32,190 nucleotides of DNA from a bacterium (GCA_030674415.1 JAUSGP010000005.1:1-32190), one strand, 5' to 3'. Shown: positions 1,628 to 12,123, counted from the first letter of the stretch. The notes: generated by a model from the letters alone, not told the origin. Translations and numbers: made by a program.

Positions 1628-1663
1628 GTGCCGTGGCAGAGAAGTGAATCTCTACCACGGCAC
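1628..1663. terminator. Strong hairpin between convergent transcripts
   Basis: gtgccgtggcagaga-agtgaa-tctctaccacggcac, directly after the TrmB-like stop codon. Confidence 0.7.
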
Positions 1664-1845
1664 AGGTCGGATCAGGCTGTAAGGGAGGGAGTTATCCTAC
1701 CCGCAACCTCTGAACATAAGCGTCATGCACTTCTTTCGTTCTGGCGATGGCTGATGCCCCCGCCTGGCTTGTGAAGAGAATCTGACTCTTGCTTCGATCC
1801 TACGTCCTACACTGGTTGGCGGCCGGACGCACTCCGCCTCGAGTT

Positions 1846-1857
1846 CTAGTCGTTCAC
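1846..1857 (-). other. SD-led minigene GTG-AAC-GAC-TAG
   Basis: Minus strand reads ggaggataaagaa GTG AAC GAC TAG. Confidence 0.4.
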
Positions 1858-1940
1858 TTCTTTATCCTCCACGATCTGTGACTAGAGATAAACTGGAGGC
1901 CTCACAGGGGCGTTGACAACACCCCTGCTCCCCAGCCGCC

Positions 1941-1952
1941 CTAGTCGTGCAT
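1941..1952 (-). other. SD-led minigene ATG-CAC-GAC-TAG
   Basis: Minus strand reads aaggagggttct ATG CAC GAC TAG, about 40 nt downstream of the predicted start site of the 2000-2028 promoter. Confidence 0.45.
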
Positions 1953-1999
1953 AGAACCCTCCTTTTCGCCGGTAACACACCGGGTACTCGCTAGCAGGT

Positions 2000-2028
2000 A
2001 GTATATACCCACTAGTTTTAAATGTCAA
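2000..2028 (-). promoter_or_regulatory. sigma70-type promoter (leftward)
   Basis: TTGACA-17 nt-TATACT on the minus strand. Confidence 0.8.
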
Positions 2029-2165
2029 GTTAGAATAACAAAATTAGTTAGTTTAAGTGTCAATTTTTATCTAGTTTAGTCAGACTCAATTAAATTCTAT
2101 ATTGTACAAAATGGCTATATTTCTAGCTATTTTAAATATTGTATAAGATGAAATGTCAAAACTGC

Positions 2166-2194
2166 TTGACAAAATTACTCTTTAGGTATATACT
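2166..2194 (+). promoter_or_regulatory. sigma70-type promoter driving the array
   Basis: TTGACA (2166-2171), 17 nt spacer, TATACT (2189-2194), with an AT-rich upstream region. Confidence 0.85.
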
Positions 2195-2200
2195 CTCTTT

Positions 2201-2775
2201 GTACCTTGAAATCAGCACTGGTTAGCGACGGCAACCGTCTAGAAAATTATCACGGACCCGCAGTCAGACTGGCTTCAAAAGTACGGTTTCTATCCTGCGG
2301 AGGAACTACGTTCCTCCGCTCCAGAGGCTCAAAAGCCTGTGGGGCGGGGGTGGGTAAGGTGGCCTTAATACCGCATAGGGAGTCTTCCCCTTCAGCAAGG
2401 GAAGTATGCGGAACCAGACGCGAGCACAGACTCGCGGAGGGTAAACCAAGATGGGACGAGTTTTGTGCCTGAAGCCCCGTGAAGCTGCACGGTGTGCTAC
2501 GTCCCAGCCCGAACCCACTCCCCGCGATGTTCTTTTACAAAAAGTGGCTAACACCACTAGAGGACTGGAGGCAGAAGCCACCAAGATCCTCGCTCGGGCA
2601 GGTTTCAAGCCCGATGGCCAACGCAAGTCGATTCGCCGGGAAAGTGTGAGAGCAATCTCCACTCCCTGCGGCGGCAAGCCTGGTTATCGGAGGCGATAAC
2701 CGCCGGGTGCGTCATCTTCGGCCAAGGCACCGAAGTTGCTCCAAAATCCAGGAGTGTAAAAGCATGGGTAAGAAT
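2201..2775 (+). ncRNA. Long structured leader / candidate ncRNA
   Basis: No convincing ORF. Many stems, e.g. ccgcag/ctgcgg, ggaggaac/gttcctcc, ccgcata/tatgcgg, cgcgag/ctcgcg. Long-range pairing of 2344-2355 with 2513-2525 is followed by GTTCTTT at 2529. Confidence 0.55.
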
Positions 2776-2863
2776 GGGTGAGCGGTAAAATATCGCTCGC
2801 CCTCCCATCAAAGCTTTCAAACTTTTGAAAATTTTGATGGGAAATGATTCCCAAATGTTCTTT
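2776..2863 (+). repeat. Array element R1 (hairpin + long palindrome + overlapping hairpin + GTTCTTT)
   Basis: gggtgagcg..cgctcgccc / tcccatcaaa..tttgatggga / gggaa..ttccc / gttcttt. Confidence 0.9.
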
Positions 2864-2875
2864 GGAGATAAAAAG

Positions 2876-3067
2876 ATGCTGAAAAAGATCGGTTTGTCTG
2901 TCCTGTCGGCGTTTTTCGCTGGCGGAGCAGTTCTCTGGTTCTGGGTTGCCTATACGCAATCCAATCCAGAGATGGCGAGGGCGGCTTTCATGATCGCTCT
3001 CGGCCCCACCACGGCCGCAATCCTCTTTGCCCACAAGGCGAGATGGATCAACAAACCCAATCGTTGA
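2876..3067 (+). CDS. Small two-TM membrane protein (array ORF)
   Basis: SD ggag then ATG 2876 directly after R1; two hydrophobic segments. Confidence 0.75.
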   Translation: MLKKIGLSVLSAFFAGGAVLWFWVAYTQSNPEMARAAFMIALGPTTAAILFAHKARWINKPNR

Positions 3068-3090
3068 TGATTGGGTTCCCACCAAAACAT

Positions 3091-3299
3091 GTCCAAGTCG
3101 GTGCAGCGGCTCGAGGACAACAACACTTCATTTAGGGACCTGCGAAAAGCACTGTAAGTGCTACACGGGCCCAGAAAGCTTGAAGTGTACGGTCTCAAAA
3201 GATCGAGATCACTGGGTTCGAATACGGGTGGCTTAGTGCTCTTCCGAAGGAGGTGGCCACAGCCCGTTATTCCATAGAACCTGGACTGCAACGTTCTTT
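3091..3299 (+). ncRNA. Pseudoknot module copy A
   Basis: Hairpin gtccaagtcg-GTGCAG-cggctcgaggac; complementary CTGCA at 3286, then GTTCTTT at 3293. Confidence 0.65.
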
Positions 3300-3303
3300 A
3301 AAA

Positions 3304-3381
3304 GCCGAACTTCGGTTCGGCTTCCATCAGAGTTCTGAAAACTTTCAGAGTTGTGATGGGGAATGTTCCCCGCTGTTCTTT
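3304..3381 (+). repeat. Array element R2
   Basis: gccgaac-ttcg-gttcggc / ttccatca..tgatgggg / ggggaa..ttcccc / gttcttt. Confidence 0.9.
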
Positions 3382-3393
3382 TCAGGAGATTAT

Positions 3394-3714
3394 ATGCCCA
3401 ATACGTTTGCCGAACTGGTCGTCCGGATCAACAATTCGGACAACGGGACTCTGTTCCAGCAGATCTGCGCAATGTTCGCGCAGGTCAGCACGATGGACGC
3501 TAACAGCGTTATCGTGTGCTGGCAGGCTCTCGACATGGTGAGGAGTCTGGACTCCCGCCACGGCTGCACCATTGCAGTCGACAAGCTCCAGCGCGCCTTG
3601 ATTGCCAGGATGCAAGTCCTGAGCAATCAAGAGTTTCCCCACGCCGTCCTCTACAACAGGATGACGCTGCGGGAAAAATTCAGATCAGTAATCGGTCCCG
3701 GGAGAGGGCTGTGA
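3394..3714 (+). CDS. Hypothetical protein (array ORF)
   Basis: SD aggag then ATG 3394 after R2 (MPNTFAELVV...); 106 aa, no recognised family. Confidence 0.75.
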   Translation: MPNTFAELVVRINNSDNGTLFQQICAMFAQVSTMDANSVIVCWQALDMVRSLDSRHGCTIAVDKLQRALIARMQVLSNQEFPHAVLYNRMTLREKFRSVIGPGRGL

Positions 3715-3723
3715 TCTGGGCGC

Positions 3724-3829
3724 CGTCAGTCTCATTAGGTAACTGACGTTAAAGGGAGTTAAGCTGCCCGTCCGTCGTGTAGGACAAAGTGCTGATGACC
3801 AAGCGTCTGCCGGAGCGTCATCCCGGTGC
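3724..3829 (+). ncRNA. Repeated structured module (TTAA..GTTAAGCTG..GTGCTRATGA) plus CGT-loop hairpin, copy 1
   Basis: Homologous to 6218-6323 with compensatory stem changes (cgtcag/ctgacg vs cgtgag/ctcacg; gtcc/ggac vs gcct/aggc). Confidence 0.6.
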
Positions 3830-3900
3830 TGATTCGCAAGAATCGGCTTTCTATCAGAGAACTGAAAAATCAGTCTTCTGACGGGAAGCTGAAACTTCCC
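3828..3900 (+). repeat. Array element R3 (not directly followed by GTTCTTT)
   Basis: gctgattc-gcaa-gaatcggc / tttctatcaga..tctgacgggaa / gggaag..cttccc. Confidence 0.75.
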
Positions 3901-3910
3901 AAAACCAGAG

Positions 3911-4125
3911 GTCCAAGCCGGTGCAGCGGCTCAAGGACTGAGAGAGTTCAAGTTCACCTTTTAAATCCCAACTCTCTGGACGCTCAGAATCTGCTTTTGG
4001 ACTCGTGGAGCAATGCTCGCGAAATCCTAGCAGGAGCGCAAGGTGAATGGTGAACGTAAGTTCATCACCGAGGGCGGCGTGCCAAGCATGACTTGTCACT
4101 CTGCTCCGGACTGCACACGTTCTTT
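3911..4125 (+). ncRNA. Pseudoknot module copy B
   Basis: gtccaagccg-GTGCAG-cggctcaaggac; CTGCAC at 4111; GTTCTTT at 4119. Confidence 0.65.
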
Positions 4126-4140
4126 CTATAGGAGGTGAGT

Positions 4141-4146
4141 ATGTAG
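4141..4146 (+). other. Start-stop minigene ATG-TAG behind a perfect SD
   Basis: aggaggtgagt ATG TAG, followed by the hairpin gtgccggc..gccggcac. Confidence 0.45.
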
Positions 4147-4194
4147 ACGCATACGTGTGCCGGCAGGTTGAGAGCGAGCCGGCACTGTCATTCA

Positions 4195-4275
4195 GCCGAA
4201 CTTCGGTTCGGCTTCCATCAAAGTTTTTAAACTCTTGAAAATTTTGATGGGACAATTCCGTCCCGAAAGTTCTTT
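4195..4275 (+). repeat. Array element R4
   Basis: gccgaac-ttcg-gttcggc / ttccatcaaa..tttgatggga / gggac..gtccc / gttcttt. Confidence 0.9.
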
Positions 4276-4287
4276 GAGGAGAGTGCT

Positions 4288-4662
4288 ATGCAGAATATCA
4301 TCGTTGGCGTGTCTATCCCGGACAACTACCAGATCGGCTCCAAAACCGAAGGTCGGCGGATGGCGGTGCACAGTTGGGATCTCACGAAGAGTGAGAGACT
4401 GACCACCGCCACCTACGGCAGCCGGCAGCACTCAACAACTTGGTTCGAGGACTGCGAAGTTCTCGACGCCGAGGGGGAGCTACCCGAAGCCCTGCACATT
4501 CTCGTCCGCTGTGGGCGTGAGTGGAATGGGTCGATCGGCGGGTCGTCGTGGTTCGCCAGTGAAGCTTTTGTCTCACGAGAACGTGCTGAAGAGTACGTCG
4601 CCAAGTGGGAGTCGGAGCTCAGCTGGTACTGGATCGTCACAACAAGGAGGTGTATCGAGTGA
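4288..4662 (+). CDS. Hypothetical protein (array ORF)
   Basis: SD gaggag then ATG after R4; 124 aa, Trp-rich C-terminus. Confidence 0.8.
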   Translation: MQNIIVGVSIPDNYQIGSKTEGRRMAVHSWDLTKSERLTTATYGSRQHSTTWFEDCEVLDAEGELPEALHILVRCGREWNGSIGGSSWFASEAFVSRERAEEYVAKWESELSWYWIVTTRRCIE

Positions 4663-4693
4663 GTATAGCGTCTGCCGGAGCGTAATCCCGGTA

Positions 4694-4742
4694 CTGTTCA
4701 GAGATGCGTATCTCTGCTGATGAGCTCAAAAGAGCGAAACAG
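4694..4742 (+). ncRNA. Hammerhead ribozyme, type III
   Basis: CUG-UU / stem I cagagat-gcgt-atctctg / CUGAUGA / stem II gctc-aaaa-gagc / GAAA / CAG. Complete canonical core; predicted cut after 4698 (GUU triplet). Confidence 0.85.
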
Positions 4743-4761
4743 AAATTCTTTGAAATTTGGG

Positions 4762-4802
4762 TCCCCATTAGATAATTCAATTTTTGAATTATCTAATGGG
4801 GA
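4762..4802. repeat. Perfect 19-bp inverted repeat (isolated long-palindrome variant)
   Basis: tccccattagataattcaa-ttt-ttgaattatctaatgggga. Confidence 0.85.
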
Positions 4803-4906
4803 GATGTCACTACGCGAGGACAGGGAACAACAGAGCTAGCGTGCTAACGCCACGTGAATACTGCCCGCTGAAACTCCGTGATGCATGACTCTTCCCAAGT
4901 AACACG

Positions 4907-5084
4907 GTCCAGGCCGGTGCAGCGGCCAGAGGACTAGTGGATTCGCTCGCCTGGATTGGTGGGCGGATGGCGACGAGTTCTCGTCGCAACCAGGTATAAG
5001 ACCGGGGGTTCAAATCGCTTCTGAAGGAGGTGCCCCGACCGGTGATAGAGTACCTGGACTGCACACGTTTTACTTTTGTTCTTT
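4907..5084 (+). ncRNA. Pseudoknot module copy C
   Basis: gtccaggccg-GTGCAG-cggccagaggac; CTGCAC at 5059; GTTCTTT at 5078. Confidence 0.65.
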
Positions 5085-5103
5085 CAAAAAGGAGATTAGA
5101 GAG

Positions 5104-5355
5104 ATGATGATCGGCCTTTCGAACTCGGAAGCCAGGGCTCGTTTGGTTGAGGGTGTGGTGTCCGACGATCGTCGCGACATCATCGGGCCGAACGGCCTGA
5201 AGTACAAGGTCAAGAACTACCTTGTACCCACCCTCATCCCAGGAGAGAAGGTGCGGTTCATTCCGCATCAGCGCTCCTGGAAGAGTCAGACCTATGCCGG
5301 CGAGGTCTGGCTGCAAAACGAGCGCCATCGCCGGCGCAAACCCGATCCTTCGTGA
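5104..5355 (+). CDS. Small hypothetical protein, possibly OB-fold/cold-shock-like (array ORF)
   Basis: SD aaggag after GTTCTTT 5078. The V.G.V...L.PGEKVRF pattern loosely recalls small OB folds. Confidence 0.65.
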   Translation: MMIGLSNSEARARLVEGVVSDDRRDIIGPNGLKYKVKNYLVPTLIPGEKVRFIPHQRSWKSQTYAGEVWLQNERHRRRKPDPS

Positions 5356-5422
5356 TCGGGTTCCCATCAAAGTTTTCAAATCATTGAAGATTTTGATGGG
5401 AAATGATTCCCAAATGTTCTTT
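5340..5422 (+). repeat. Array element R5
   Basis: acccgatc..gatcgggt (overlaps the upstream stop codon) / tcccatcaaa..tttgatggga / gggaa..ttccc / gttcttt. The 3' part is nearly identical to R1. Confidence 0.9.
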
Positions 5423-5440
5423 ACAACAGGAGAAGAGATA

Positions 5441-6205
5441 ATGAGAATTCTGGTAATTGACGACAACCCTCTTCATCATGCAAGTGCTCGGCAGACGCTC
5501 GGTGGCCACGAGGTCACGATCGTCGGCACGTACGACGAGGCGCACAAGCTCCTTGAGGAGCCGAGAGCGCACTGGAAAGCCGTGAATGATGAACTGGAAC
5601 GCCGCGGCTTCAAGAACCCATACGCGCCGAACATGACCGCGGAAGAGCGGGCGGCGGCGCGGGCCGAAGAGAAGCGCATTGAGCAGGAGCTCTGTCCGCC
5701 TCCGCCGTTCGAAGCCGTTCTCTCTGACTTGCTCATGCCAGCAAGCAGGATGACCATGGGTCCGGAAGGAGAGAAGTACATCGGGCAGGAAATGCCGGTG
5801 GGCTTCGCTCTCTCGCTCATGGCGGCTCTTCACGCGAAGTACGTGGCGGTCGTGACGGCAACCAACCATCACAACCATCCGGCCTCCGCCATGCTCGACG
5901 CCTTTGAGTCGAGATGCACCCACGAGCACGATTCGGTAGGCAAGCCCCCTCGTTTTGTCATCAACGGAGCGCGTGTCGGTTTCTACCACGCGCCGATGAC
6001 ATTCGTGGAGGGTACCACCTGTCCGGATTGCGGCGGCAGCGGCGACAAGGAGGTCTGCTACTGCGTCGAGCGCAACGCCGGCGTGGCCAAGCCTGATTGC
6101 GACACCTGCAAAGGTGCCGGCCGTCAGTGTTGGACTTGCCGCAATACCGGCAAGCAGTGGGGCAAGGACTGGGGCAAGGTCCTAACTCATATCACTGCTG
6201 GATAG
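5441..6205 (+). CDS. Receiver-like domain protein with C-terminal CxxCxGxG zinc-finger repeats
   Basis: MRILVIDD start and LSDLLMP phospho-acceptor-like motif; CPDCGGSG, CDTCKGAG, CWTCRNTG. SD aggag then ATG 5441. Confidence 0.8.
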   Translation: MRILVIDDNPLHHASARQTLGGHEVTIVGTYDEAHKLLEEPRAHWKAVNDELERRGFKNPYAPNMTAEERAAARAEEKRIEQELCPPPPFEAVLSDLLMPASRMTMGPEGEKYIGQEMPVGFALSLMAALHAKYVAVVTATNHHNHPASAMLDAFESRCTHEHDSVGKPPRFVINGARVGFYHAPMTFVEGTTCPDCGGSGDKEVCYCVERNAGVAKPDCDTCKGAGRQCWTCRNTGKQWGKDWGKVLTHITAG

Positions 6206-6217
6206 CGGTGATAGCCC

Positions 6218-6323
6218 CGTGAGGCTTATCAGATAACTCACGTTAATGAGCGTTAAGCTGCTCGCCTGTTGTGTAAGGCAAAGTGCTAATGATCTGACGT
6301 CCGCCGGAGCGTCATCCCGGTAC
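6218..6323 (+). ncRNA. Repeated structured module plus CGT-loop hairpin, copy 2
   Basis: Homologous to 3724-3829; followed by GTTCTTT at 6325. Confidence 0.6.
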
Positions 6324-6333
6324 TGTTCTTTCC

Positions 6334-6412
6334 GCCGAACCTCGGTTCGGCTCCTACCAGAGTTCTGAAAAACTTCAGAATTGTGGTGGGACAATCCCGT
6401 CCCCTGTTCTTT
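6334..6412 (+). repeat. Array element R6
   Basis: gccgaac-ctcg-gttcggc / tcctacca..tggtggga / gggac..gtccc / gttcttt. Confidence 0.9.
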
Positions 6413-6421
6413 GAGGAAAAA

Positions 6422-6559
6422 ATGAAGAAGAAAATTCTTCGACTGCCTCGCGCACCACTACCGCGCCAGACTGGTGGATACCACAGTCCGGACAAGGGTC
6501 GCGGTGCCTACAACCGCCAGCATGAAAAACTGGCCACCAAAAAGGAGACGCAGGAATGA
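6422..6559 (+). CDS. 45-aa basic peptide resembling alternative ribosome-rescue factor ArfA
   Basis: Manual translation: MKKKILRLPRAPLPRQTGGYHSPDKGRGAYNRQHEKLATKKETQE. SD gagg; PLxRQ...KGxGxYxR pattern. Below the ORF-track size cut-off. Confidence 0.6.
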   Translation: MKKKILRLPRAPLPRQTGGYHSPDKGRGAYNRQHEKLATKKETQE

Positions 6560-6768
6560 TGATGAAAACGATCCCGCAGCAGGTTCAGCGTCCTCGCGTT
6601 CACCAGCCACTGTTTCTGAAACAGAAGCTCGTCTGCTCGATGTGCAAGGTTAGGGAAGTGATCCCGCCGATTGCCGTCTGCTCGCCCTGCTTACAAATCC
6701 TCAACCAGAGGCGCAAGGAAGCAGAGAAGAGTGGGCGTCCGTGGTGGCGGCGATGGTTCTGGGGCTAA
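6556..6768 (+). CDS. Small zinc-binding protein (CxxC...CxxC) with PWWRRWF tail
   Basis: ATGA overlap with the upstream peptide; SD aaggag; CSMC and CSPC. Confidence 0.7.
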   Translation: MMMKTIPQQVQRPRVHQPLFLKQKLVCSMCKVREVIPPIAVCSPCLQILNQRRKEAEKSGRPWWRRWFWG

Positions 6769-6802
6769 ATCACCCAGCGTCTTCCGGAGCGTCATCCCGG
6801 TA

Positions 6803-6851
6803 CTGTTCAGAGATGCGTATCTCTGCTGACGAAGTCGAAAGACAGAAACAG
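6803..6851 (+). ncRNA. Hammerhead ribozyme, type III (variant stem II)
   Basis: Stem III/I identical to the 4694 copy; CUGACGA; a-gtc-gaaa-gac-a (A.A mismatch at the base of stem II); GAAA-CAG. Confidence 0.7.
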
Positions 6852-6870
6852 ATGTTCTTTAAAAAAAATC

Positions 6871-7130
6871 TGCCTGCTTCCCAGAAAGTTCCTGAAATAT
6901 ATTCGGTACTTTTCTGGGGCGCAGGTATGGACAGATACCTTGGACGCCCGGGAAGCCTCCCACCCAATAACCACCTTAAGTCTGACGAGACAAGAGGAGA
7001 ATGGTTATTTGGTTAAAAATCGACCTTGACTTCGCGCTGGTCGATTAGGCCGCTCTTTGCAGGGATCGGAATAGGCATTCCTAAAGGTCTCGGATGATGC
7101 AACATTTGAGACCACTGTCCACCGTTCTTT
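6871..7130 (+). ncRNA. Long palindrome plus multi-stem non-coding domain
   Basis: tgcctgc..cccagaaa/tttctggg..gcaggta at 6871-6927. tggacag (6928) pairs with ctgtcca (7115), enclosing several hairpins, then GTTCTTT at 7124. Confidence 0.5.
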
Positions 7131-7132
7131 TT

Positions 7133-7214
7133 GCCGAACTCATGTTCGGCTTCCGTAAAAGTTTTTAAATCATTGAAAATTTTTACGGGACAATTTGGTC
7201 CCAACCTGTTCATT
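7133..7214 (+). repeat. Array element R7
   Basis: gccgaac-tcat-gttcggc / ttccgtaaaa..ttttacggga / gggac..gtccc / gttcatt variant. Confidence 0.88.
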
Positions 7215-7239
7215 TCATCATCAGAAGGATGGCTTGGCT

Positions 7240-7599
7240 ATGGAAAAGAAGTTTGTTCTCTCTATTGTCGAATCCGAGAATACGAAGTATGGGTATAACC
7301 CATGTGAGTGCTCGGATTGCACCCACTGGAGTATCAACTTCGAGCCCTCGGCAGACGAGGCGGCGGTGAAGGAGCTTTGCGATTTCGTCAATCGAGTATC
7401 TCACTCGAAAGGCAAAATCAAGGAGCTTGGGGAGAAGGAGTGCAAATTCCTGTCGGCCCTTTTGGGAATCAACATCACAGGAGGTCTTCCTTATGTTGAA
7501 GCTAGATACTGGGAATACCAGGAACCTAGACCCGAACCGCCACCATCATCTGTTTCCGAGGCATTCCGGAGGTTGCACAATCTTAAGCGGGGATCCTAG
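7240..7599 (+). CDS. Hypothetical protein with CxCxxC motif (array ORF)
   Basis: ATG 7240 after R7; PCECSDC. Confidence 0.75.
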   Translation: MEKKFVLSIVESENTKYGYNPCECSDCTHWSINFEPSADEAAVKELCDFVNRVSHSKGKIKELGEKECKFLSALLGINITGGLPYVEARYWEYQEPRPEPPPSSVSEAFRRLHNLKRGS

Positions 7600-7635
7600 T
7601 GAATCCATAAGCTAGGGCGAGACCGCAGTGCATAT

Positions 7636-7725
7636 GGGTGAGCGGCAAAATATCGCTCGCCCTCCCATCAGAGTTTTTCAAAAATTGGAAAGTTCTGATG
7701 GGACAATAGTGTCCCTGTGTTCTTT
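7636..7725 (+). repeat. Array element R8
   Basis: First hairpin nearly identical to R1 / tcccatcaga..tctgatggga / gggaca..tgtccc / gttcttt. Confidence 0.9.
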
Positions 7726-7746
7726 CACAGCCTAAGGAGTGCGTCC

Positions 7747-8199
7747 ATGAAAAGCGTTGAAAAAGAGTTACCAGAAGTCTACGGGATCATCTCCCGCGAC
7801 CACGCCCAAAACGGCAAGAACAGCGCTGTCTCCAAGTACGTGAACGGCGGGTGTACCTCGGATTCAGCAGAGCCAGTACTGGCACTCGTGATGCCCTATT
7901 TCGAGAGCTACGAGATGTCCAGGCTCCTCGCTCTGTATGATGCGGTCTGGAGCGCTCATCAAGTCGGTCTGTTGCACCACATCAATTTCAGCAACAGGAA
8001 GATCAGAGAGGAGGCGCGCAAGTACGGCATCTCTGATGATCGGGTGTGGCCAGCGAAGCTCGTGGACATCGAGGAAATCAGCGTGGGCGACCCGGAGGAT
8101 ATCGGGTCTGCCATTGCGGAGATCCTCAGTGTCCTCATGAAAATGAGAGACATGGAGAGCTTCCTCGAGACTCGCGCCGATCAACTTCTGAGTTCTTAG
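7747..8199 (+). CDS. Hypothetical protein (array ORF)
   Basis: SD taaggag then ATG 7747 (MKSVEKELPE...); 150 aa. Confidence 0.8.
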   Translation: MKSVEKELPEVYGIISRDHAQNGKNSAVSKYVNGGCTSDSAEPVLALVMPYFESYEMSRLLALYDAVWSAHQVGLLHHINFSNRKIREEARKYGISDDRVWPAKLVDIEEISVGDPEDIGSAIAEILSVLMKMRDMESFLETRADQLLSS

Positions 8200-8236
8200 G
8201 AATAAAATACGTCCACTGGCGCGTAAGCCCAGTATC

Positions 8237-8329
8237 GTCCGAGGAAGTCATATATCCTCGGACTTCCTTCAGAGAATTTAACTTCGGTTGAATGTTCTGA
8301 AGGAACGAATGGTTCGTTCCATGTTCTTT
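8237..8329 (+). repeat. Array element R9
   Basis: gtccgagga..tcctcggac / ttccttcaga..tctgaaggaa / ggaacgaa..ttcgttcc / gttcttt. Confidence 0.88.
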
Positions 8330-8343
8330 GAGGAGATAAAAAG

Positions 8344-8733
8344 ATGGAAACAGAAAAGGATTTGTTCGAGCTTGAAATGGAGGAGAAGCGGAAGCAGGAA
8401 CCTCCGATCTCATCCGATAACCCCGCACCCTTCAAACAGCCGTTTCTGGTCATTACGTTCAAAGATCAGAAAATCCACGGCAACGTTGCCGACGGCTGGC
8501 ACGTCGAAGTCGACGGTCAGATTCAGAAGTACTTCGAAGAATTCACGGAGCGCACTCTCGAATGGGCTCCGCCGTTCAATTCAATGCACCGCGCGACGCC
8601 GCTTCTGAGGAGCATCGTCGAGTACTTCGCGAGCCGTGGCATGGAGGTCGCGAGTGTGGCCACGTACGCCGGATCGGCTGGCCCATCACATGTACTGAGG
8701 AACGGGGCGTTCTTCAAGCGCATGAGGTTCTAA
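8344..8733 (+). CDS. Hypothetical protein (array ORF)
   Basis: SD gaggag then ATG; 129 aa. Confidence 0.8.
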   Translation: METEKDLFELEMEEKRKQEPPISSDNPAPFKQPFLVITFKDQKIHGNVADGWHVEVDGQIQKYFEEFTERTLEWAPPFNSMHRATPLLRSIVEYFASRGMEVASVATYAGSAGPSHVLRNGAFFKRMRF

Positions 8734-8754
8734 CGTTCATTAAAAGGAGGTAAT

Positions 8755-8853
8755 ATGCCACCGGATTCAAAAGGGATAGCTGAGCGGCCCGATTCAAGAC
8801 TCAGCCCTAGATCTTCGAGGTTTAGAGAGGTAACGGTACGTGCCTTCACGTGA
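8755..8853 (+). CDS. 32-aa peptide (array ORF)
   Basis: gttcatt, then SD aaggagg, then ATG: MPPDSKGIAERPDSRLSPRSSRFREVTVRAFT. Confidence 0.45.
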   Translation: MPPDSKGIAERPDSRLSPRSSRFREVTVRAFT

Positions 8854-8864
8854 TCCGACCTAAT

Positions 8865-8959
8865 GGGGAAGAACCAAAACTTGGCCAACCTTCCCCTTTC
8901 ATCTAAGGTTTTAGAAAATTGAAATTTTAGATGAGAGAATAGTTCTCTCAATGTTCTTT
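8865..8959 (+). repeat. Array element R10 (most divergent copy)
   Basis: ggggaag..cttcccc / ctttcatctaa..ttagatgagag / tgagagaa..ttctctca / gttcttt. Confidence 0.8.
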
Positions 8960-8974
8960 GAGAAAAGAGGTGTC

Positions 8975-9298
8975 ATGTATCGAAGGATCGAACCTCCAGG
9001 CAGCTCGGCTATGACTCTTGGTTGCGAGGCAATGTGTCAGTCTGGTCTTCCGGATCCCCGCGGTTGGGTTCAAGGCACTCGACCAGTCGAATATTTCTTC
9101 ACCGAATACGGCTGGCGCAAAAGCGGTCATGCAGTTCTGAGCGAAATTCGCTCAAAGGGTGTTATCGCCAAAGTGATCGCAGTGAAGGAAAGGGACCCTC
9201 GTATCCATGTTCGCTACCAGGACAAGTGGCAAGTGATTGTCACCTGGGGATGTCGAAAGGAACATAACTCCAAACGAAGGGTATCAACCCAAAACTAG
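8975..9298 (+). CDS. Hypothetical protein (array ORF)
   Basis: SD gaggtg then ATG 8975 (MYRRIEPP...FFTEYGWRK...). Confidence 0.75.
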   Translation: MYRRIEPPGSSAMTLGCEAMCQSGLPDPRGWVQGTRPVEYFFTEYGWRKSGHAVLSEIRSKGVIAKVIAVKERDPRIHVRYQDKWQVIVTWGCRKEHNSKRRVSTQN

Positions 9299-9307
9299 GA
9301 GTGAGAA

Positions 9308-9508
9308 ATGTTCTTCGATAACCATGAAATTTTGGTCCAGGGTTCCACGCTTGTAGGTATTCAGAATGTAACCTTGCTTTGCAAGATTCACGACGAGCTC
9401 GAGCTCCTAATCATCGACACCCAAGCAATAGTGCCCGGCAAGATCGTTCGTTTAAGATGTCCGTATTGCAGAATGCTTGGCTACCTGATCACTAGCAAAG
9501 CTGAGTAA
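9308..9508 (+). CDS. Small putative zinc-ribbon protein
   Basis: SD aggag; CKIH...CPYC. Confidence 0.6.
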   Translation: MFFDNHEILVQGSTLVGIQNVTLLCKIHDELELLIIDTQAIVPGKIVRLRCPYCRMLGYLITSKAE

Positions 9509-9518
9509 TAACTTGATC

Positions 9519-9598
9519 GGGCAAACTATGTTTGCCCTTCCGTCAGAGAGCTGAAAGATTTCAGAATTCTGACGGGACAATTCCGTCCCGTGTTCTTT
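9519..9598 (+). repeat. Array element R11
   Basis: gggcaaac-tat-gtttgccc / ttccgtcaga..tctgacggga / gggac..gtccc / gttcttt. Confidence 0.9.
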
Positions 9599-9619
9599 GA
9601 GTGAAGAGGAAGTGAAAGA

Positions 9620-9883
9620 ATGGAACAGCATCTGTCGGTTGCTCAAGCCGCAAGCGAAGTAATCCAACACGCCTGCGAGAATTTCTCTACCACGAGCCGA
9701 CAAGACGAACTTTGTGGAGAGATCCTCGCCGCTCTCACGATTGCGGCCAGGGTAGACATCCAGGCAAGGGAGCGCCACGCCTTTGTCTCTAGATGGCAAT
9801 CGCTTCTTCCGGAAGTCCTTCGTGCCAACGGAAGAGCGGTTTTTGCAGTCATCGTGGAGCAGAAGCTAGAAGAACTCCTTTAA
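9620..9883 (+). CDS. Hypothetical protein (array ORF)
   Basis: SD gagga then ATG after R11; 87 aa, predicted helical. Confidence 0.75.
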   Translation: MEQHLSVAQAASEVIQHACENFSTTSRQDELCGEILAALTIAARVDIQARERHAFVSRWQSLLPEVLRANGRAVFAVIVEQKLEELL

Positions 9884-9912
9884 ACAAACGTTCATCGGCA
9901 CGTAAGCCCGGT

Positions 9913-10001
9913 TCCGAGGAAACCATAAATCCTCGGGTTTCCTTAAAAGATTTTCTAACAGGAAATTTTTTAAGGGGACAATTCCGTCCCAACTGTTCTT
10001 T
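9913..10001 (+). repeat. Array element R12
   Basis: tccgagga..tcctcggg (like R9) / tttccttaaaa..ttttaagggga / gggac..gtccc / gttcttt. Confidence 0.88.
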
Positions 10002-10013
10002 GAGGAAAATACG

Positions 10014-10358
10014 ATGAGAATGATTCTGTGTCTTTGTTTTCTGTCCGTTGCTCTCGTCGCGGCGCAAGAACCGGCGCAACAACCGGTATTCCCCGCACTG
10101 ACCGAGCCGGCTTACGTCGGCGTCGGCCAGGTTGATCTCAAGAAGATTTCCTTGAGGTCGGCACGCGACTTGGGCATCATCCGGGCGCAGGGAGCGCTCG
10201 CACGCGCAATCTGCGACCCGAACAACGAGAAGGAGCGCGTCCGCGCTTTCATCGTTGGCAAGCGTCATACCGACGAACTTCGAGTCGGTGACGTGCTCTG
10301 GGTCCGTATCTGGATCCGGAAGGACGAGGTCGAGGTGGACAAAGTCTGCCTCGACTGA
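10014..10358 (+). CDS. Secreted hypothetical protein (signal peptide)
   Basis: MRMILCLCFLSVALVAA-QEP signal peptide; SD gagga. Confidence 0.75.
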   Translation: MRMILCLCFLSVALVAAQEPAQQPVFPALTEPAYVGVGQVDLKKISLRSARDLGIIRAQGALARAICDPNNEKERVRAFIVGKRHTDELRVGDVLWVRIWIRKDEVEVDKVCLD

Positions 10359-10388
10359 AACGGAAACGAATTCATTTTTGGAGGGTGT

Positions 10389-10676
10389 ATGCAACAGAGT
10401 GTGCTCGGCGAACTCATCACGCTCATTTTGGTCATCGTGATCATGCTCGGAGGCATGACAATGATCGTGGGCGGCCCGTCTCTTACGGGACGGTGGTACC
10501 GGTGGATCTTCCGAACTGTAGTACTCGCTCCCCTCGGTTGGGGGCTGCGCCAGATCGGCAGAGGCGTCGAGTGGCTCCTACGATGGAGCGCCCGACAACT
10601 CGGACGACTCCTACTCTATCTCGCTCGACTCACGGGCAGAGGTATCCACTACGCCTGGGTCAGGTTAACCACCTGA
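10389..10676 (+). CDS. Small membrane protein
   Basis: SD gaggg; N-terminal TM segment, then an Arg/Trp amphipathic tail. Confidence 0.7.
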   Translation: MQQSVLGELITLILVIVIMLGGMTMIVGGPSLTGRWYRWIFRTVVLAPLGWGLRQIGRGVEWLLRWSARQLGRLLLYLARLTGRGIHYAWVRLTT

Positions 10677-10738
10677 CCCAGTTTTGTCATATTCTAAGCC
10701 ATATTTTGATAAATTAGAGGTAAAAATAGACAATATAC

Positions 10739-10767
10739 TTGACAATATTTCAAGTATATGATAGGAT
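10739..10767 (+). promoter_or_regulatory. sigma70-type promoter
   Basis: TTGACA-17 nt-TAGGAT with extended TG, 8 nt before ATG 10776. Confidence 0.6.
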
Positions 10768-10775
10768 AGTAATAG

Positions 10776-10976
10776 ATGCAGGCGTTTATCGTCGGCACCA
10801 GGACGGTCGTCAGCAACTTCGTTGACGGCACCCGAATCGTGGAGCAGAGGTTTCGGGAAACCGAAGCGGATGCTCTTGCTCACGCTCTGTGGCTCGAAAG
10901 CCACGGCAAGCGTGAGGAAGCTGTGGAATATCTGGACGACTACCTCCAGAGACACCCAGCCCCGACTCGCCACTAA
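10776..10976 (+). CDS. Small hypothetical protein
   Basis: 66-aa ORF directly behind its own promoter (probably leaderless). Confidence 0.6.
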   Translation: MQAFIVGTRTVVSNFVDGTRIVEQRFRETEADALAHALWLESHGKREEAVEYLDDYLQRHPAPTRH

Positions 10977-11415: not shown

Positions 11416-12123
11416 TTAATCGTCGTCTTCCACTTCAACAATTGAGGTGGCATTTGCTTCGACCCTAGTCTTGCCGAGAGCACCGAGGGAGCGAAGTGCC
11501 TTCATGAGACTGGTGTGAGCCTCACGAATATGGCCCTTAACTTCAGCAGCAATATTGCGTACTCGTTCGAAGTTTTCCTGCGCCTTGTCTCCAGAGAGAT
11601 CAACAGAGGCAAAAAGGGCAATGCTCGTCTTGGCTGCAGAGAGATGAACTTTTGCCTCCGCTACGAAACCTTCGGCTTCGGCTGTATTCTTACCCTCGGC
11701 CTTAACCTTCTCTATTCTAGACTCTATCCTGGTAAGAATTTTCTCCAGTCGTTCAACGGTAGCCATGAGCAATCGAGCAGTGTGTTCGGCCTTCTTCTTA
11801 GCTAGACCTCTCTGCATCTCCACGCGCTTAGCTGTTGAGGAAGCTTGGCGCACTTCGCGGTTCTCTTTCATTTCTTCTTTACGAGTTTCGATATTGGCCT
11901 TGATTTCGACTCGACGCTCGGTACTCGATGCCTTACGATTCTCGGCCTCAATCTTCCTCTCTTCTACTCTAGCCTTAACATCAACACCAACCCTTTCGGC
12001 TGGTACAGGAACAGGACGACCACCGAGGTTCTTGTCTCGATAATCAGTATCCAAGGCGAAAGCCGGAGTGGCCAAGGCAACAAGTGCCAAGGCGAGGGTA
12101 GCAGTAATAAATTTTTGTTTCAT
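11416..12123 (-). CDS. Secreted coiled-coil protein
   Basis: Signal peptide (...TPAFA) followed by long charged helices. Confidence 0.8.
   Translation of the reverse strand: MKQKFITATLALALVALATPAFALDTDYRDKNLGGRPVPVPAERVGVDVKARVEERKIEAENRKASSTERRVEIKANIETRKEEMKENREVRQASSTAKRVEMQRGLAKKKAEHTARLLMATVERLEKILTRIESRIEKVKAEGKNTAEAEGFVAEAKVHLSAAKTSIALFASVDLSGDKAQENFERVRNIAAEVKGHIREAHTSLMKALRSLGALGKTRVEANATSIVEVEDDD

What the first reader, a model, noticed from the sequence alone, without database searches (positions are those of the whole stretch)
2166..10680. Single-promoter array of small orphan genes punctuated by families of structured repeats, ribozymes and a common GTTCTTT junction
Seen: one TTGACA-17-TATACT promoter is followed by ~8.5 kb in which ~16 short, mutually unrelated ORFs all lie on the + strand, each with an SD. 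They are separated by a limited vocabulary of reused non-coding modules: R elements x12, pseudoknot module x3, hammerhead x2, CGT-loop hairpin x6-7, and a TTAA/GTTAAG module x2. Module order is shuffled, and some intervals contain no gene (3293-3375, 6325-6406, 7124-7208). Known: a promoter followed by gene/palindrome alternation is the layout of integron cassette arrays, but attC sites need RYYYAAC...GTTRRRY, which is absent, and no integrase is in the window. Inference: this is either a new kind of gene-cassette array or a long polycistron cut into units by RNA processing. I do not recognise it as a described system.
Basis: partly seen in the sequence, partly recalled or inferred. Interest (0 to 1): 0.95.

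Follow-up and report, generated by a model that had tools for sequence, protein, structure and literature searches.

The report
Ribozyme-punctuated small-gene cassette array
A tiny groundwater bacterium carries an optional 10-kb island in which about 18 small genes of unknown function, read from one promoter, are separated by reusable structured RNA pieces, some of them hammerhead ribozymes and most of them undescribed, and related strains hold different genes between the same pieces.

Summary
GTTCTTT occurs 17 times on the + strand, all within 2529-9995. There are 12 three-hairpin R elements, 3 pseudoknot modules, 2 hammerhead-like cores, 6 CGT-loop hairpins and 2 TTAA/GTTAAG modules, and none occurs elsewhere in the 485-kb assembly.

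The R element is a new structured motif. Hairpin B has 10-11 compensatory pairs and G.U outnumbers A.C 69 to 5, so the + strand folds, most likely as RNA. Rfam has no match. In other Patescibacteria contigs the same motif sits just after a promoter as a 5'UTR, or between genes, ending GUUCUUU-SD-AUG. Hammerheads with complete cores occupy the same slot in relatives.

The array belongs to an accessory island: a TrmB-like regulator, a divergent ~350-nt ncRNA, a ~335-nt structured leader, then the cassettes. The leader was found in 4 of 37 genomes of the genus. A 99%-complete congener has clpP almost next to ppa instead. Arrays share only 1-3 ORFs pairwise, with some breakpoints at GTTCTTT.

No attC site, integron integrase or phage similarity was found. 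Best reading: a polycistron punctuated and insulated by RNA modules, whose repeats also drive cassette shuffling. Nothing here shows cleavage or recombination directly.

The parts
884..1624 (+). TrmB-family wHTH regulator gene (246 aa), first gene of the island
   Evidence: Pfam PF01978, E 1.2e-15. An orthologue of 68-85% identity lies next to the leader in all 7 independent copies. There is no HxK(x)4D motif. The gene is absent between clpP and ppa in G028.
1628..1663 (.). 15-bp hairpin serving as a two-way terminator for the TrmB gene and the minus-strand ncRNA
   Evidence: Inverted repeat I23. Terminator-like on the - strand. Conserved in the relatives.
1640..2000 (-). Conserved ~350-nt non-coding RNA transcribed away from the array; its promoter TTGACA-17-TATACT lies at 2028-2000
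   Evidence: Promoter scores 11/12. Six copies were aligned. RNAalifold gives -43.0 on this strand against -33.6 on the other. Predicted pairs contain 26 G.U and no A.C. No Rfam match.
2010..2165 (.). AT-rich control region between the two divergent promoters, with a repeated TGTCAA word and a GCTATA..TAGC palindrome
   Evidence: Read directly. Conserved in relatives. The operator role is inferred.
2166..2194 (+). Array promoter TTGACA-17-TATACT
   Evidence: Scores 11/12. The same promoter form precedes the leader in 5 other copies.
2200..2535 (+). Structured ~335-nt leader ending in GTTCTTT
   Evidence: Six copies were aligned. RNAalifold gives -53.4 against -47.8 for the other strand. A long-range closing helix ends 2-5 nt before GTTCTTT. 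The leader was found in 4 of 37 genomes of the genus, counting G000. No Rfam match.
2529..10001 (+). 17 GTTCTTT junctions (J), starting at 2529, 2857, 3293, 3375, 4119, 4269, 5078, 5416, 6325, 6406, 6854, 7124, 7719, 8323, 8953, 9592 and 9995; variants ATTCTTT at 4745 and GTTCATT at 7209
   Evidence: J always lies 0-6 nt 3' of a helix (R hairpin C, hammerhead stem III, pk pairing, leader closing helix).
2778..2863 (+). R1 (hairpins A, B, C plus J)
   Evidence: Model R1, 68.3 bits.
3300..3381 (+). R2, alone in a gene-free unit
   Evidence: Model R1, 60.5 bits.
3826..3897 (+). R3-like element without J, followed by pk2
   Evidence: Seen by eye. Model R1 does not find it.
4192..4275 (+). R4
   Evidence: Model R1, 83.5 bits.
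5340..5422 (+). R5
   Evidence: Model R1, 68.2 bits.
6331..6412 (+). R6, alone in a gene-free unit
   Evidence: Model R1, 77.3 bits. This unit and the next ORF are shared with G016, and the homology starts at J 6325.
7130..7215 (+). R7 with variant junction GTTCATT
   Evidence: Model R1, 72.8 bits. G021 holds the same R and the same variant junction but a different ORF follows it.
7638..7725 (+). R8
   Evidence: Model R1, 80.1 bits.
8238..8329 (+). R9
   Evidence: Model R1, 64.2 bits. It is co-inherited with the upstream ORF in G021 as far as hairpin C.
8860..8959 (+). R10
   Evidence: Model R1, 54.8 bits.
9517..9598 (+). R11
   Evidence: Model R1, 81.5 bits.
9913..10001 (+). R12
   Evidence: Model R1, 69.9 bits.
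4694..4743 (+). Hammerhead HH1 (type III layout); predicted cut between 4698 and 4699
   Evidence: Rfam Hammerhead_3, 24.5 bits, E 0.12, gathering score 48.5. Complete core CUGAUGA..GAAA, a G10.1-C11.1 pair, a 7-bp stem I, and 4-bp stems II and III.
6803..6852 (+). Hammerhead-like HH2; core present but A/A at 10.1/11.1
   Evidence: Not reported by Rfam at E<=5. It would fail the rejection rule quoted from PMC3088659.
3076..3299 (+). pk1 module
   Evidence: Family D11. The hairpin loop GUGCAG is complementary to CUGCA just 5' of J. The stems covary in relatives. The loop pairing itself never varies, so it is unproven.
3896..4125 (+). pk2 module
4892..5084 (+). pk3 module
3720..3831 (+). TTAA/GTTAAG module 1, with a CGT-loop hairpin at its 3' end
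   Evidence: Family D7. 94-96% identical copies occur in G021 and G016.
6214..6325 (+). TTAA/GTTAAG module 2, with a CGT-loop hairpin at its 3' end
   Evidence: 79% identical to module 1.
6861..7123 (+). 263-nt unit with no SD-led ORF; unexplained
   Evidence: A single copy in the assembly.
2544..10676 (+). About 18 small ORFs: 2544-2699, 2876-3067, 3394-3714, 4288-4662, 5104-5355, 5441-6205, 6422-6559, 6556-6768, 7240-7599, 7747-8199, 8344-8733, 8755-8853 (32 aa, doubtful), 8975-9298, 9308-9508, 9620-9883, 10014-10358, 10389-10676
   Evidence: The five array ORFs shared with relatives have dN/dS 0.06-0.36. No Pfam or PHROG family. The 254-aa ORF has 322 homologues.
10655..10681 (+). Intrinsic terminator closing the array
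   Evidence: 11-bp stem followed by TTTTGT. Conserved in G021.
10739..10976 (+). Separate promoter and a 66-aa ORF (10776-10976); in a relative this ORF is the first cassette inside the array
   Evidence: Promoter scores 10/12. 55% amino-acid identity to the first cassette of G016. dN/dS 0.28.
11416..12123 (-). 235-aa protein of no known family at the far end of the island
   Evidence: No Pfam or NCBIfam family. Homologues lie at the far end of arrays in G016, L060 and L061.

Best explanation
This is an accessory genomic island of a small Patescibacteria (CPR) genome. It holds a TrmB-like regulator, a divergently transcribed ~350-nt ncRNA, and one long + strand operon. The operon opens with a ~335-nt structured leader and carries about 18 small protein genes.

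The repeats between the genes act on the transcript. Type III hammerhead ribozymes cut it. That is the family's established property and was not shown here. The more frequent and undescribed R motif has four parts in order:
- a GC-rich hairpin A that belongs to the 3' end of the upstream cistron;
- an 18-22-bp hairpin B with an invariant A-U/A-U/G.U patch;
- a short hairpin C;
- 0-6 nt of spacer and then GUUCUUU-SD-AUG.

R marks the same slot as the hammerheads. I infer that a host RNase processes it, with RNase III acting on hairpin B as my first guess. I infer that every module leaves the downstream cistron with the same start: a stable 5' structure followed by the single-stranded GUUCUUU and the SD. 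This would work as a natural insulator that makes each small gene express independently of its neighbours.

Because the modules are repeated and co-oriented, recombination between them swaps, duplicates and deletes units of the form J-ORF-R-J. That gives the array its cassette-like variability.

Shown: the anatomy, the covariation, the strand bias, the distribution and the variability. Inferred: transcription from one promoter, cleavage, the RNase involved, the insulator role and the recombination mechanism.
For: 1. Structure and strand.
- Hairpin B has 10-11 pairs with compensatory changes. 93-95% of cells are paired. 0 of 500 shuffles reach the observed covariation, and slid controls fall to 36-62% paired.
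- G.U plus U.G number 69 against 5 A.C plus C.A in 522 cells.

2. 5'UTR use.
- Of 35 non-redundant strong R hits in metagenome contigs, 9 lie 35-44 nt behind a TTGACA..TATAAT promoter. The others follow an upstream stop codon and hairpin A.
- 28 of 35 have an SD-led start 7-22 nt after J, 5 have one at 43-51 nt, and 2 have none.

3. Interchangeability with ribozymes.
- 17 distinct hammerhead cores occur in these arrays and contigs. Each is followed by stem III plus 2 nt and then a J-like heptamer: GTTCTTT 7, GTTCATT 3, GATCTTT 3, GCTCTTT 2, ATTCTTT 1, other 1.
- Rfam scores 6 of them in relatives at 37-42 bits, E 5e-6 to 1.3e-4.
- Some sit directly before SD-AUG.

4. J follows four kinds of helix: R hairpin C, hammerhead stem III, the pk pairing and the leader closing helix.

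5. J is not a general start-site signal. Outside the array 2 of 97 copies precede an SD-led ORF, against 0-3 for permuted heptamers.

6. RNase III is encoded in all 5 genomes checked.

7. Precedent. Clustered hammerheads flank genes in prophages and cut ~2-kb polycistronic transcripts in vitro (PMC3088659, passages read).

8. Variability.
- The leader is found in 4 of 37 genomes of the genus and R in 10 of 37.
- G028 has clpP about 350 bp from ppa where the island would sit.
- Arrays share 3, 3 and 1 ORFs pairwise.
- G016 carries a tandem duplication bounded by hammerhead modules.
- Other contigs of the source sample join R1-like sequence to an ORF15 homologue.
Against: - No RNA data exist for this organism: no RNA run was listed. 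Transcription, cleavage and the single-promoter claim are therefore untested.
- All hammerhead matches score below Rfam's gathering score of 48.5.
- 6 of the 17 cores have a mismatch at 10.1/11.1, including the window's second copy.
- Nothing identifies the enzyme that would act on R. RNase III is a guess from helix length.
- J also stands between non-coding modules (HH-J-pk-J-R-J in G016; gene-free units in the window). An insulator or RBS role does not explain that; a DNA joint would.
- Some breakpoints lie exactly at J and the downstream R travels with its ORF. That is the integron cassette logic.
- G.T pairs also form in single-stranded DNA, so the strand bias alone does not exclude a top-strand DNA structure.
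Confidence: 0.55

Rival explanations
1. This is a DNA-level cassette platform that works like an integron but is not one. GTTCTTT is the crossover site. The R element, folded as top-strand DNA or bound as a duplex, is the recombination signal carried at the 3' end of each mobile unit. An unidentified recombinase encoded elsewhere inserts and excises units.
For: - All units are co-oriented behind one promoter, and gene-free units consist of R plus J only.
- J bounds non-coding modules too.
- For ORF 7747-8199, homology with G021 runs through the downstream R to hairpin C and stops where J should be. Upstream, G021 has the R7 orthologue with the same GTTCATT variant joined to a different ORF.
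- Homology with G016 starts at J 6325.
- Cassette turnover between congeners is high.
- One gene is a cassette in G016 and a free-standing gene with its own promoter in the window.
- The array has 53-57% GC against 43-48% in the flanks.
Against: - No PF00589 recombinase occurs in the window or the 80%-complete assembly.
- The recombinase near arrays in relatives scores best as XerD/XerC (237 and 223 bits against 132 for integron integrase). It is linked to nusA/ppa rather than to the array.
- Y1 transposase hits do not track arrays: G016 has 10 R matches and no Y1 hit.
- No RYYYAAC...GTTRRRY pair occurs on either strand.
- The hairpin C to J spacing varies from 0 to 6 nt.
- R serves as a 5'UTR directly behind promoters.
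- Other breakpoints are not at J: after ORF 6422-6559 and after ORF 10014-10358.
- Ordinary homologous recombination between about 60 nt of 80-85% identical R/J sequence explains the same joints.
Confidence: 0.2
2. The R motif, and possibly the pk, TTAA/GTTAAG or leader modules, is itself a new class of self-cleaving ribozyme that cuts at or next to GUUCUUU. The array would then be cut into monocistronic RNAs by several ribozyme classes.
For: - R stands in the same slot as hammerheads.
- According to the introduction of PMC4604425, new ribozyme classes were found precisely by looking near hammerhead and twister genes.
- R has invariant nucleotides beyond its helices: the A-U/A-U/G.U patch, GGGA and J.
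- The two competing folds of R are close to equal in energy: median difference 0.0 kcal/mol over 29 copies (3 skewed by misaligned hairpin C, 1 could not be evaluated).
Against: - R is mostly regular helix and shows no conserved multi-helix junction or internal-loop core.
- The spacer before J varies from 0 to 6 nt, which is unusual for a fixed active site.
- No covariation links J to any other part.
- There is no match to any of the 4227 Rfam families at E<=5.
- The pk module does not have the pistol layout.
Confidence: 0.12
3. R is a transcription attenuator. Hairpin C plus the U-rich GUUCUUU is a weak intrinsic terminator. The basal 4 bp of extended hairpin B form the competing antiterminator. 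On this reading the modules set a polarity gradient or a regulated read-through along the operon.
For: - The consensus scan lists hairpin C plus J as terminator-like at 10 or more R elements.
- The 3' strand of extended hairpin B (GGGA) overlaps the 5' strand of hairpin C.
- The two folds are nearly equal in energy.
Against: - Hairpin C has only 5-8 bp. The U run is broken by C and starts up to 6 nt after the stem.
- J equally follows hammerheads, pk modules and the leader, where no terminator hairpin precedes it.
- Twelve terminators in series would silence the distal genes, yet those genes are under purifying selection.
- R also lies directly behind promoters of single genes.
Confidence: 0.08
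4. The array is the remnant of a phage or plasmid early operon inserted next to clpP, as in the prophage hammerhead clusters already described.
For: - Hammerhead clusters are typical of prophages (PMC3088659).
- The genes are small and of unknown family.
- Distribution within the genus is sporadic.
- GC content is higher than in the flanks.
Against: - 0 of 10 ORFs match PHROGs.
- blastn of 8 kb found nothing in 50,697 phage records or 72,556 plasmid records.
- The R pattern has 0 matches in the viral contig collection.
- The island holds no integrase, replication or structural gene.
- The same TrmB-ncRNA-leader head is conserved in 7 of 7 copies, several at the same chromosomal site.
Confidence: 0.05

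Closest known systems
Clustered hammerhead ribozymes flanking genes in prophage operons (Perreault et al. 2011, PMC3088659; passages read)
   Same: Several type III hammerheads lie between small, variable genes in one transcription unit. The proposed role is cutting a long transcript into gene-length mRNAs.
   Different: Here hammerheads are the minority module: 2 in the window against 12 R elements. Every module ends in GUUCUUU. The array has a conserved TrmB/ncRNA/leader head. It lies in a CPR chromosome with no phage genes. I could not see that paper's supplementary hammerhead lists, so CPR examples may already be listed there.
Integron cassette arrays (attC sites, IntI, Pc promoter); consensus as quoted in the finding plus my own recall
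   Same: One promoter is followed by co-oriented, promoterless cassettes. A structured element sits at the 3' end of each cassette. A short conserved G-TT... word lies at the joint just before the next SD. Empty units occur. Content differs between close relatives.
   Different: No IntI gene and no R''/R' inverse core pair (0 matches). The structured element is three hairpins with an RNA-like G.U bias. Ribozymes take its place in some units. The element also serves as a 5'UTR behind promoters.
RNase III processing sites of the phage T7 early polycistronic mRNA (recalled, not looked up)
   Same: Long hairpins lie between cistrons of a single-promoter operon. Cutting would leave a 3' hairpin on the upstream mRNA and a defined 5' end on the downstream mRNA.
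   Different: No cleavage is shown here. R has a conserved heptamer and a second small hairpin that T7 sites lack.
RiboJ, the synthetic ribozyme-plus-hairpin insulator (PMC6206723; search listing and start of abstract only)
   Same: A self-cleaving ribozyme followed by a hairpin, placed between promoter or upstream context and the RBS to make expression independent of context.
   Different: RiboJ is engineered. The present modules are natural, occur in series inside an operon, and mostly are not known ribozymes.
REP/BIME intergenic palindromes with RAYT (Y1) transposases (recalled)
   Same: Repeated intergenic hairpins with a short conserved flanking word, found in operons. Y1_Tnp homologues exist in the own genome (2 matches).
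   Different: REPs are scattered genome-wide in both orientations. R is confined to one array and one strand. G016 has 10 R matches and no Y1 hit.

Membership tests
Hammerhead ribozyme, type III (Rfam RF00008) | Conserved core CUGANGA ... GAAA with A15.1-U16.1 and an unpaired H17 at the cleavage site | tested here: met
   HH1 4694-4743: CUGUU^C ... CUGAUGA-GCUC AAAA GAGC-GAAAC. 17 of 17 regex-selected cores in the arrays keep the core, by construction of the regex.
Hammerhead ribozyme, type III (Rfam RF00008) | Three stems, I and II closed by loops, no mispair next to the core (rule quoted from PMC3088659) | tested here: inconclusive
   HH1 meets it: stem I 7 bp, stems II and III 4 bp, G10.1-C11.1. 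HH2 (6803-6852) has A/A at 10.1/11.1 and fails. 11 of 17 cores in all loci are regular and 6 have a 10.1/11.1 mispair.
Hammerhead ribozyme, type III (Rfam RF00008) | Score at or above Rfam's gathering threshold (48.5 bits) | tested here: not met
   Window: 24.5 bits, E 0.12, and 0 matches at gathering. Relatives: 37.4-42.3 bits, E 5.4e-6 to 1.3e-4. The short 4-bp stem III costs score (alignment).
Hammerhead ribozyme, type III (Rfam RF00008) | Site-specific self-cleavage | not testable with these tools
   Needs in vitro transcription or RNA end mapping. No RNA run was listed.
Integron | Integron integrase (IntI) gene next to the array | tested here: not met
   No PF00589 in the window ORFs or in the 80%-complete assembly. 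The recombinase in a relative scores 237 bits for XerD against 132 for integron integrase, below every curated cut-off.
Integron | attC sites with paired RYYYAAC ... GTTRRRY core sites | tested here: not met
   0 matches on either strand in 2166-10680; shuffled mean 0.9. GTTCTTT does not fit GTTRRRY.
Integron | Co-oriented promoterless cassettes behind one promoter, with content that varies between relatives | tested here: met
Pistol ribozyme (for the pk module) | P1 loop pseudoknotted to the P2-P3 junction, then a P3 hairpin, with the GU cleavage junction between P3 and P2 (PMC4604425) | tested here: not met
   In the pk module the 3' partner of the loop is followed directly by ACG-UUCUUU with no P3 hairpin or P2 closure. 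No Rfam Pistol match at E<=5 or at E<=1 in relatives.
Intrinsic terminator (for hairpin C plus J) | GC-rich stem directly followed by a U tract | tested here: inconclusive
   The consensus scan lists them. But the stems are 5-8 bp, the U run is interrupted, and the spacer is 0-6 nt.
Any described RNA family (for R, pk, T module, leader, ncRNA) | Match to an Rfam 15 covariance model | tested here: not met
   0 matches at gathering over the whole window. At E<=5 over 1500-11300 only the hammerhead and chance-level hits appear.

The most novel reading that the evidence does not exclude
The island is an integrase-independent gene-cassette platform specific to a CPR lineage, in which the cassette boundary is an RNA part. 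Each mobile unit would carry its own processing and insulating module ending in GUUCUUU. At least one of the undescribed modules (R, pk, TTAA/GTTAAG module, leader) would be a new class of self-cleaving ribozyme or a new RNase-guiding motif. The whole would be controlled by a dedicated TrmB-like regulator and a divergent ncRNA.
Probability: 0.2. Interest if true: 0.9.

Novelty: new variant of a known kind. Interest (0 to 1): 0.75.

Why it matters
1. The island concentrates at least six conserved structured RNAs that no Rfam family covers: R, pk, the TTAA/GTTAAG module, the CGT-loop hairpin, the leader and a divergent ncRNA. They sit beside hammerheads with complete cores. This is the kind of neighbourhood in which new ribozyme classes were found before (PMC4604425 introduction). 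The modules are therefore testable ribozyme or RNase-site candidates.

2. It shows a way to build a variable array of small accessory genes without an integron integrase, in bacteria with 0.5-Mb genomes and very few mobile-element genes.

3. If the modules insulate each cistron, they are a natural counterpart of the synthetic ribozyme insulators used in circuit design.

4. The genes themselves form a pool of small CPR proteins under purifying selection with no known family.

Tried and rejected
Known RNA families. Rfam gave nothing at gathering. At E<=5 it gave only the weak hammerhead.

tmRNA and tRNA. ARAGORN found none in the window. I rejected RNase P, tmRNA, 6S and SRP for the ncRNA and the leader on the Rfam blanks alone.

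attC. No paired core sites.

Pistol reading of the pk module. I dropped it after reading the published layout.

Extended Shine-Dalgarno reading of J. J plus SD is not used elsewhere in the genome: 2 of 97, like the controls. A 16S 3' region was found on contig C9. It shows no canonical anti-SD word directly after helix 45 and only one AAAGAAC word in the 1.7 kb upstream. I drew no conclusion from it.

J pairing with the ncRNA or the leader. No conserved AAAGAAC word appears in the alignments.

Triple-helix or pseudoknot role for J. J does not covary with the A/G change in hairpin B.

TrmB as a hidden nuclease. There is no HxK(x)4D motif. I did not fold it.

Phage or plasmid origin. No match.

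RNA evidence. No RNA holder was listed.

DNA contigs of the probable source sample were laid. They break at the repeats and show other arrangements at lower depth. These are most likely other strains or species, so they are weak and not independent evidence.

Reverse transcriptase search in five genomes. The tool gave no usable answer and I did not repeat it.

Recombinase linkage. A Xer-like gene lies near nusA/ppa in four array-bearing relatives, but none is found in the own assembly. With so few genomes I left this unresolved.

Literature. Searches for Saccharibacteria + hammerhead, Patescibacteria + ribozyme, candidate phyla radiation + hammerhead and Saccharibacteria / gene cassette / integron / hypervariable returned no paper describing such arrays. 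The library lacks most subscription journals, and supplements were closed. The 2015 and 2017 comparative-genomics papers on new ribozymes and RNA motifs were not read; I recalled them only.

Correction. An earlier count said 10 of 35 promoter-proximal R hits. The count is 9 of 35.

Full report
WHAT IS THERE

The window is a whole contig (C36) of a 484,927-bp, 36-contig assembly that is 80% complete. Its genes and its relatives place it in the Patescibacteria.

Between clpP (269-844, -) and ppa/nusA (12214-14020, -) lie, in order:
- a TrmB-family regulator gene (884-1624, +);
- a 15-bp terminator hairpin (1628-1663);
- about 350 nt of conserved non-coding sequence;
- an AT-rich region with two divergent TTGACA-17-TATACT promoters, at 2028-2000 (-) and 2166-2194 (+), each scoring 11/12;
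- 8.5 kb that ends at a strong terminator (10655-10681).

In that 8.5 kb GTTCTTT (J) occurs 17 times on the + strand and nowhere else on that strand of the contig. The rest of the assembly has 97 copies on both strands together.

The units between junctions hold about 18 small + strand ORFs, most with an SD 7-20 nt after J. Three units hold no ORF.

The array has 53-57% GC against 43-48% in the flanks.

THE REPEATS

A covariance model (R1) was built from 29 copies, 9 from the window and 20 from other contigs. It finds 11 R elements on the + strand of the window and none elsewhere in the assembly. A twelfth at 3826-3897 lacks J.

R consists of:
- a variable GC-rich hairpin A;
- an AU-rich hairpin B;
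- a short hairpin C (mostly GGGAC-loop-GUCCC);
- 0-6 nt of spacer;
- J.

Hairpin B is supported by 10-11 pairs with changes on both sides. 93-95% of cells are paired. 0 of 500 shuffles reach the observed covariation score. When the 3' partners are slid by 1-3 columns, only 36-62% of cells remain paired.

Inside hairpin B, two A-U pairs are invariant (29 of 29 each). The neighbouring pair is G.U in 27 of 29 copies. A poorly paired spot follows.

Across the helix G.U/U.G outnumber A.C/C.A 69 to 5. The + strand is therefore the folded one.

The basal four pairs of an extended hairpin B use the same GGGA as hairpin C. The two folds are nearly equal in energy, with a median difference of 0.0 kcal/mol over 29 copies. 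Three of those values are distorted by misaligned hairpin C and one could not be evaluated. I report this as an observation only.

The other modules are also real and confined to the array:
- three pk modules, in which a hairpin loop GUGCAG is complementary to CUGCA(C) just 5' of J;
- two TTAA/GTTAAG modules;
- six CGT-loop hairpins;
- two hammerhead-like cores.

Rfam reports nothing at gathering. At E<=5 it reports only Hammerhead_3 at 4698-4745, at 24.5 bits.

HAMMERHEADS

HH1 (4694-4743) has the full core, a G10.1-C11.1 pair, a 7-bp stem I and 4-bp stems II and III. HH2 (6803-6852) has an A/A mispair at 10.1/11.1.

In relatives the cores are more often regular. Rfam scores six of them at 37-42 bits (E 5e-6 to 1.3e-4), still under the 48.5-bit threshold.

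A regex scan found 17 distinct cores in the arrays and contigs held. Eleven are regular and six have a 10.1/11.1 mispair.

In all 17, stem III is followed after 2 nt by a J-like heptamer: GTTCTTT 7, GTTCATT 3, GATCTTT 3, GCTCTTT 2, ATTCTTT 1, other 1. In several the next thing is SD-AUG. Hammerheads and R elements therefore occupy the same slot.

WHERE ELSE

An exact-pattern scan found the R core in 13 of 15 loci returned from the species-representative genome collection. The other two are chance hits without hairpin B. It found 38 metagenome loci and none in the viral contig collection.

Model R1 matches:
- 10 of 37 genomes of the genus;
- 8 of 150 other genomes sampled from the order, with 1-3 copies each at 37-50 bits; one looks false by eye;
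- 0 of 150 in an even sample of the phylum.

I searched 36 of the 38 metagenome loci, leaving out two duplicates. This gave 65 matches at E<=0.001. I examined the 35 non-redundant matches above 50 bits, dropping 6 duplicate rows:
- 9 lie 35-44 nt behind a strong promoter, without hairpin A. There R is the 5' end of a primary transcript.
- The others follow a stop codon and hairpin A.
- 28 have an SD-led start 7-22 nt after J.
- 5 have a start at 43-51 nt, with an extra small hairpin in between.
- 2 have none.

This is the behaviour of a 5'UTR/intercistronic RNA element. It is hard to reconcile with a pure DNA recombination site.

THE ISLAND

The leader (2200-2535) is conserved in six copies. 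It folds into a domain whose long-range closing helix ends 2-5 nt before J.

The conserved stretch at 1640-2000 folds better on the - strand (-43.0 against -33.6). Its predicted pairs contain 26 G.U and no A.C. Together with its promoter and terminator, this makes it a divergent ncRNA.

A TrmB orthologue of 68-85% identity precedes all 7 independent leader copies.

The leader is present in only 4 of 37 genomes of the genus.

In G028 (99% complete; ClpP 69%, Ppa 68% and NusA 84% identical) clpP is followed after about 350 bp by ppa, with only a small membrane-protein gene between them. About 10 kb (884 to about 11120) is therefore an optional island. I saw no repeats at its ends.

CASSETTE BEHAVIOUR

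Three complete arrays (window, G016, G021) share 3, 3 and 1 ORFs pairwise. The six shared ORFs that I aligned give dN/dS 0.06-0.36, so they are real genes.

G016 has a tandem duplication bounded by hammerhead modules.

The 66-aa gene at 10776-10976 has its own promoter in the window. In G016 it is the first cassette after the leader.

Breakpoints:
- ORF 7747-8199. Homology with G021 runs 120 nt past the stop, through the CGT hairpin and hairpins A, B and half of C, then ends where J stands in the window.
- Upstream of that ORF, G021 has the orthologue of R7 with the same GTTCATT variant, joined to this ORF instead of ORF 7240-7599.
- ORF 6422-6559. Homology with G016 begins at J 6325.
- After ORF 6422-6559 and after ORF 10014-10358, homology ends at the stop codon, not at J.
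- ORF 10389-10676 has its own R and J in G021 but none in the window.

The unit J-ORF-R-J is thus often, but not always, the unit of exchange.

Contigs of the probable source sample break at the repeats. At lower depth they show an R1-like element joined to an ORF15 homologue, and the leader joined to the 10776 gene. These are probably other strains.

WHAT COULD DO IT

- No tyrosine recombinase was found in the assembly.
- The one near nusA/ppa in four array-bearing relatives is Xer-like.
- Y1 transposase homologues do not track arrays.
- No attC-type core pairs occur.
- There is no similarity to phages or plasmids.
- RNase III is present in all five genomes checked.
- J is not a general start-site signal in this genome.

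CONCLUSION

The best-supported reading is RNA-level punctuation of a long operon. Hammerheads would cut, which is a known property of the family. The new R motif marks the same slot and is probably processed by a host RNase. Each module leaves a structured 5' end followed by GUUCUUU-SD.

The precedent is the hammerhead-flanked prophage operons of Perreault et al. (PMC3088659, passages read).

New here:
- the R motif and its companions;
- the universal heptamer;
- the TrmB/ncRNA/leader head;
- the CPR chromosomal setting;
- the cassette-like turnover without an integrase.

One observation fits the RNA model worst and keeps the DNA-joint reading alive: J also separates non-coding modules from one another.

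No RNA data were available. No paper describing these arrays turned up in the searches. Supplements were closed.

Noticed in passing
window 1640-2000 (-), with copies in L025, L026, L027, L041, L046: The divergent ncRNA carries two copies of an SD-like GGAGG followed by AUG/UUG/GUG-NNN-GAC(U)-UAG, a 3-codon mini-ORF. The GACUAG of the first copy pairs with a downstream CUAGUC. In L041 the promoter sits right before the first GGAGG.
   Followed up: partly
window 17997-18734 (+): A second TrmB-family paralogue (245 aa). It is related to the island's TrmB only in the N-terminal wHTH (about 31-33% identity over about 110 residues to the orthologues in relatives). No array or ncRNA lies beside it.
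   Followed up: partly
window 14172-14426 (-): An 84-aa GIY-YIG domain ORF sits between nusA and rpsO. A relative (L001 1745-2701) has a Xer-like tyrosine recombinase gene at this position.
   Followed up: partly
G000 contig C9, - strand, around 1577-1650 of the reverse complement: The 16S rRNA 3' region, found with a universal word, is not followed by the usual GGAUCACCUCC anti-SD word after helix 45, although the window's genes have strong GGAGG SDs. This could be an insertion or intron, as is common in CPR rRNA genes, or an assembly end.
   Followed up: partly
loci L076 1049-1091, L075, L052, L054, L077; also L002 and L025 cassettes: Another recurrent 5'UTR hairpin (stem CUC/CUY..GAG around a GUGGCU-type loop) lies between J and the SD in 5 of 35 R-led genes, and before some cassettes in the arrays of relatives.
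   Followed up: no
window 7575-7633; L025 6838-6770; several places in L002 and L025: A further module (GGGGAUCCURG ... CYAGGGCGAGACC, a hairpin inside a closing stem with purine-rich internal loops) recurs upstream of the CGT-loop hairpin. In the window it overlaps the last codons of ORF 7240-7599.
   Followed up: no
G000 contig C3 9716-9745 and downstream to about 9950: A promoter 78% identical over 76 nt to the array promoter region follows a nusG-like ORF end. It precedes a ~190-nt structured, terminator-ended stretch with no ORF.
   Followed up: no
window 29705-30085 and 30150-30593: A 23S rRNA intervening-sequence protein homologue (PF05635) and a PrgI-family protein lie downstream of large surface-protein-like ORFs (SdrD B-like domain at 25491-26957).
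   Followed up: no
window 5441-6205: The largest cassette protein combines a divergent CheY-like receiver with a C-terminal Cys-rich (CxxC-repeat) tail. Its 322 homologues are spread over many CPR lineages (Uhrbacteria, Campbellbacteria, Kerfeldbacteria and Falkowbacteria by source names).
   Followed up: partly
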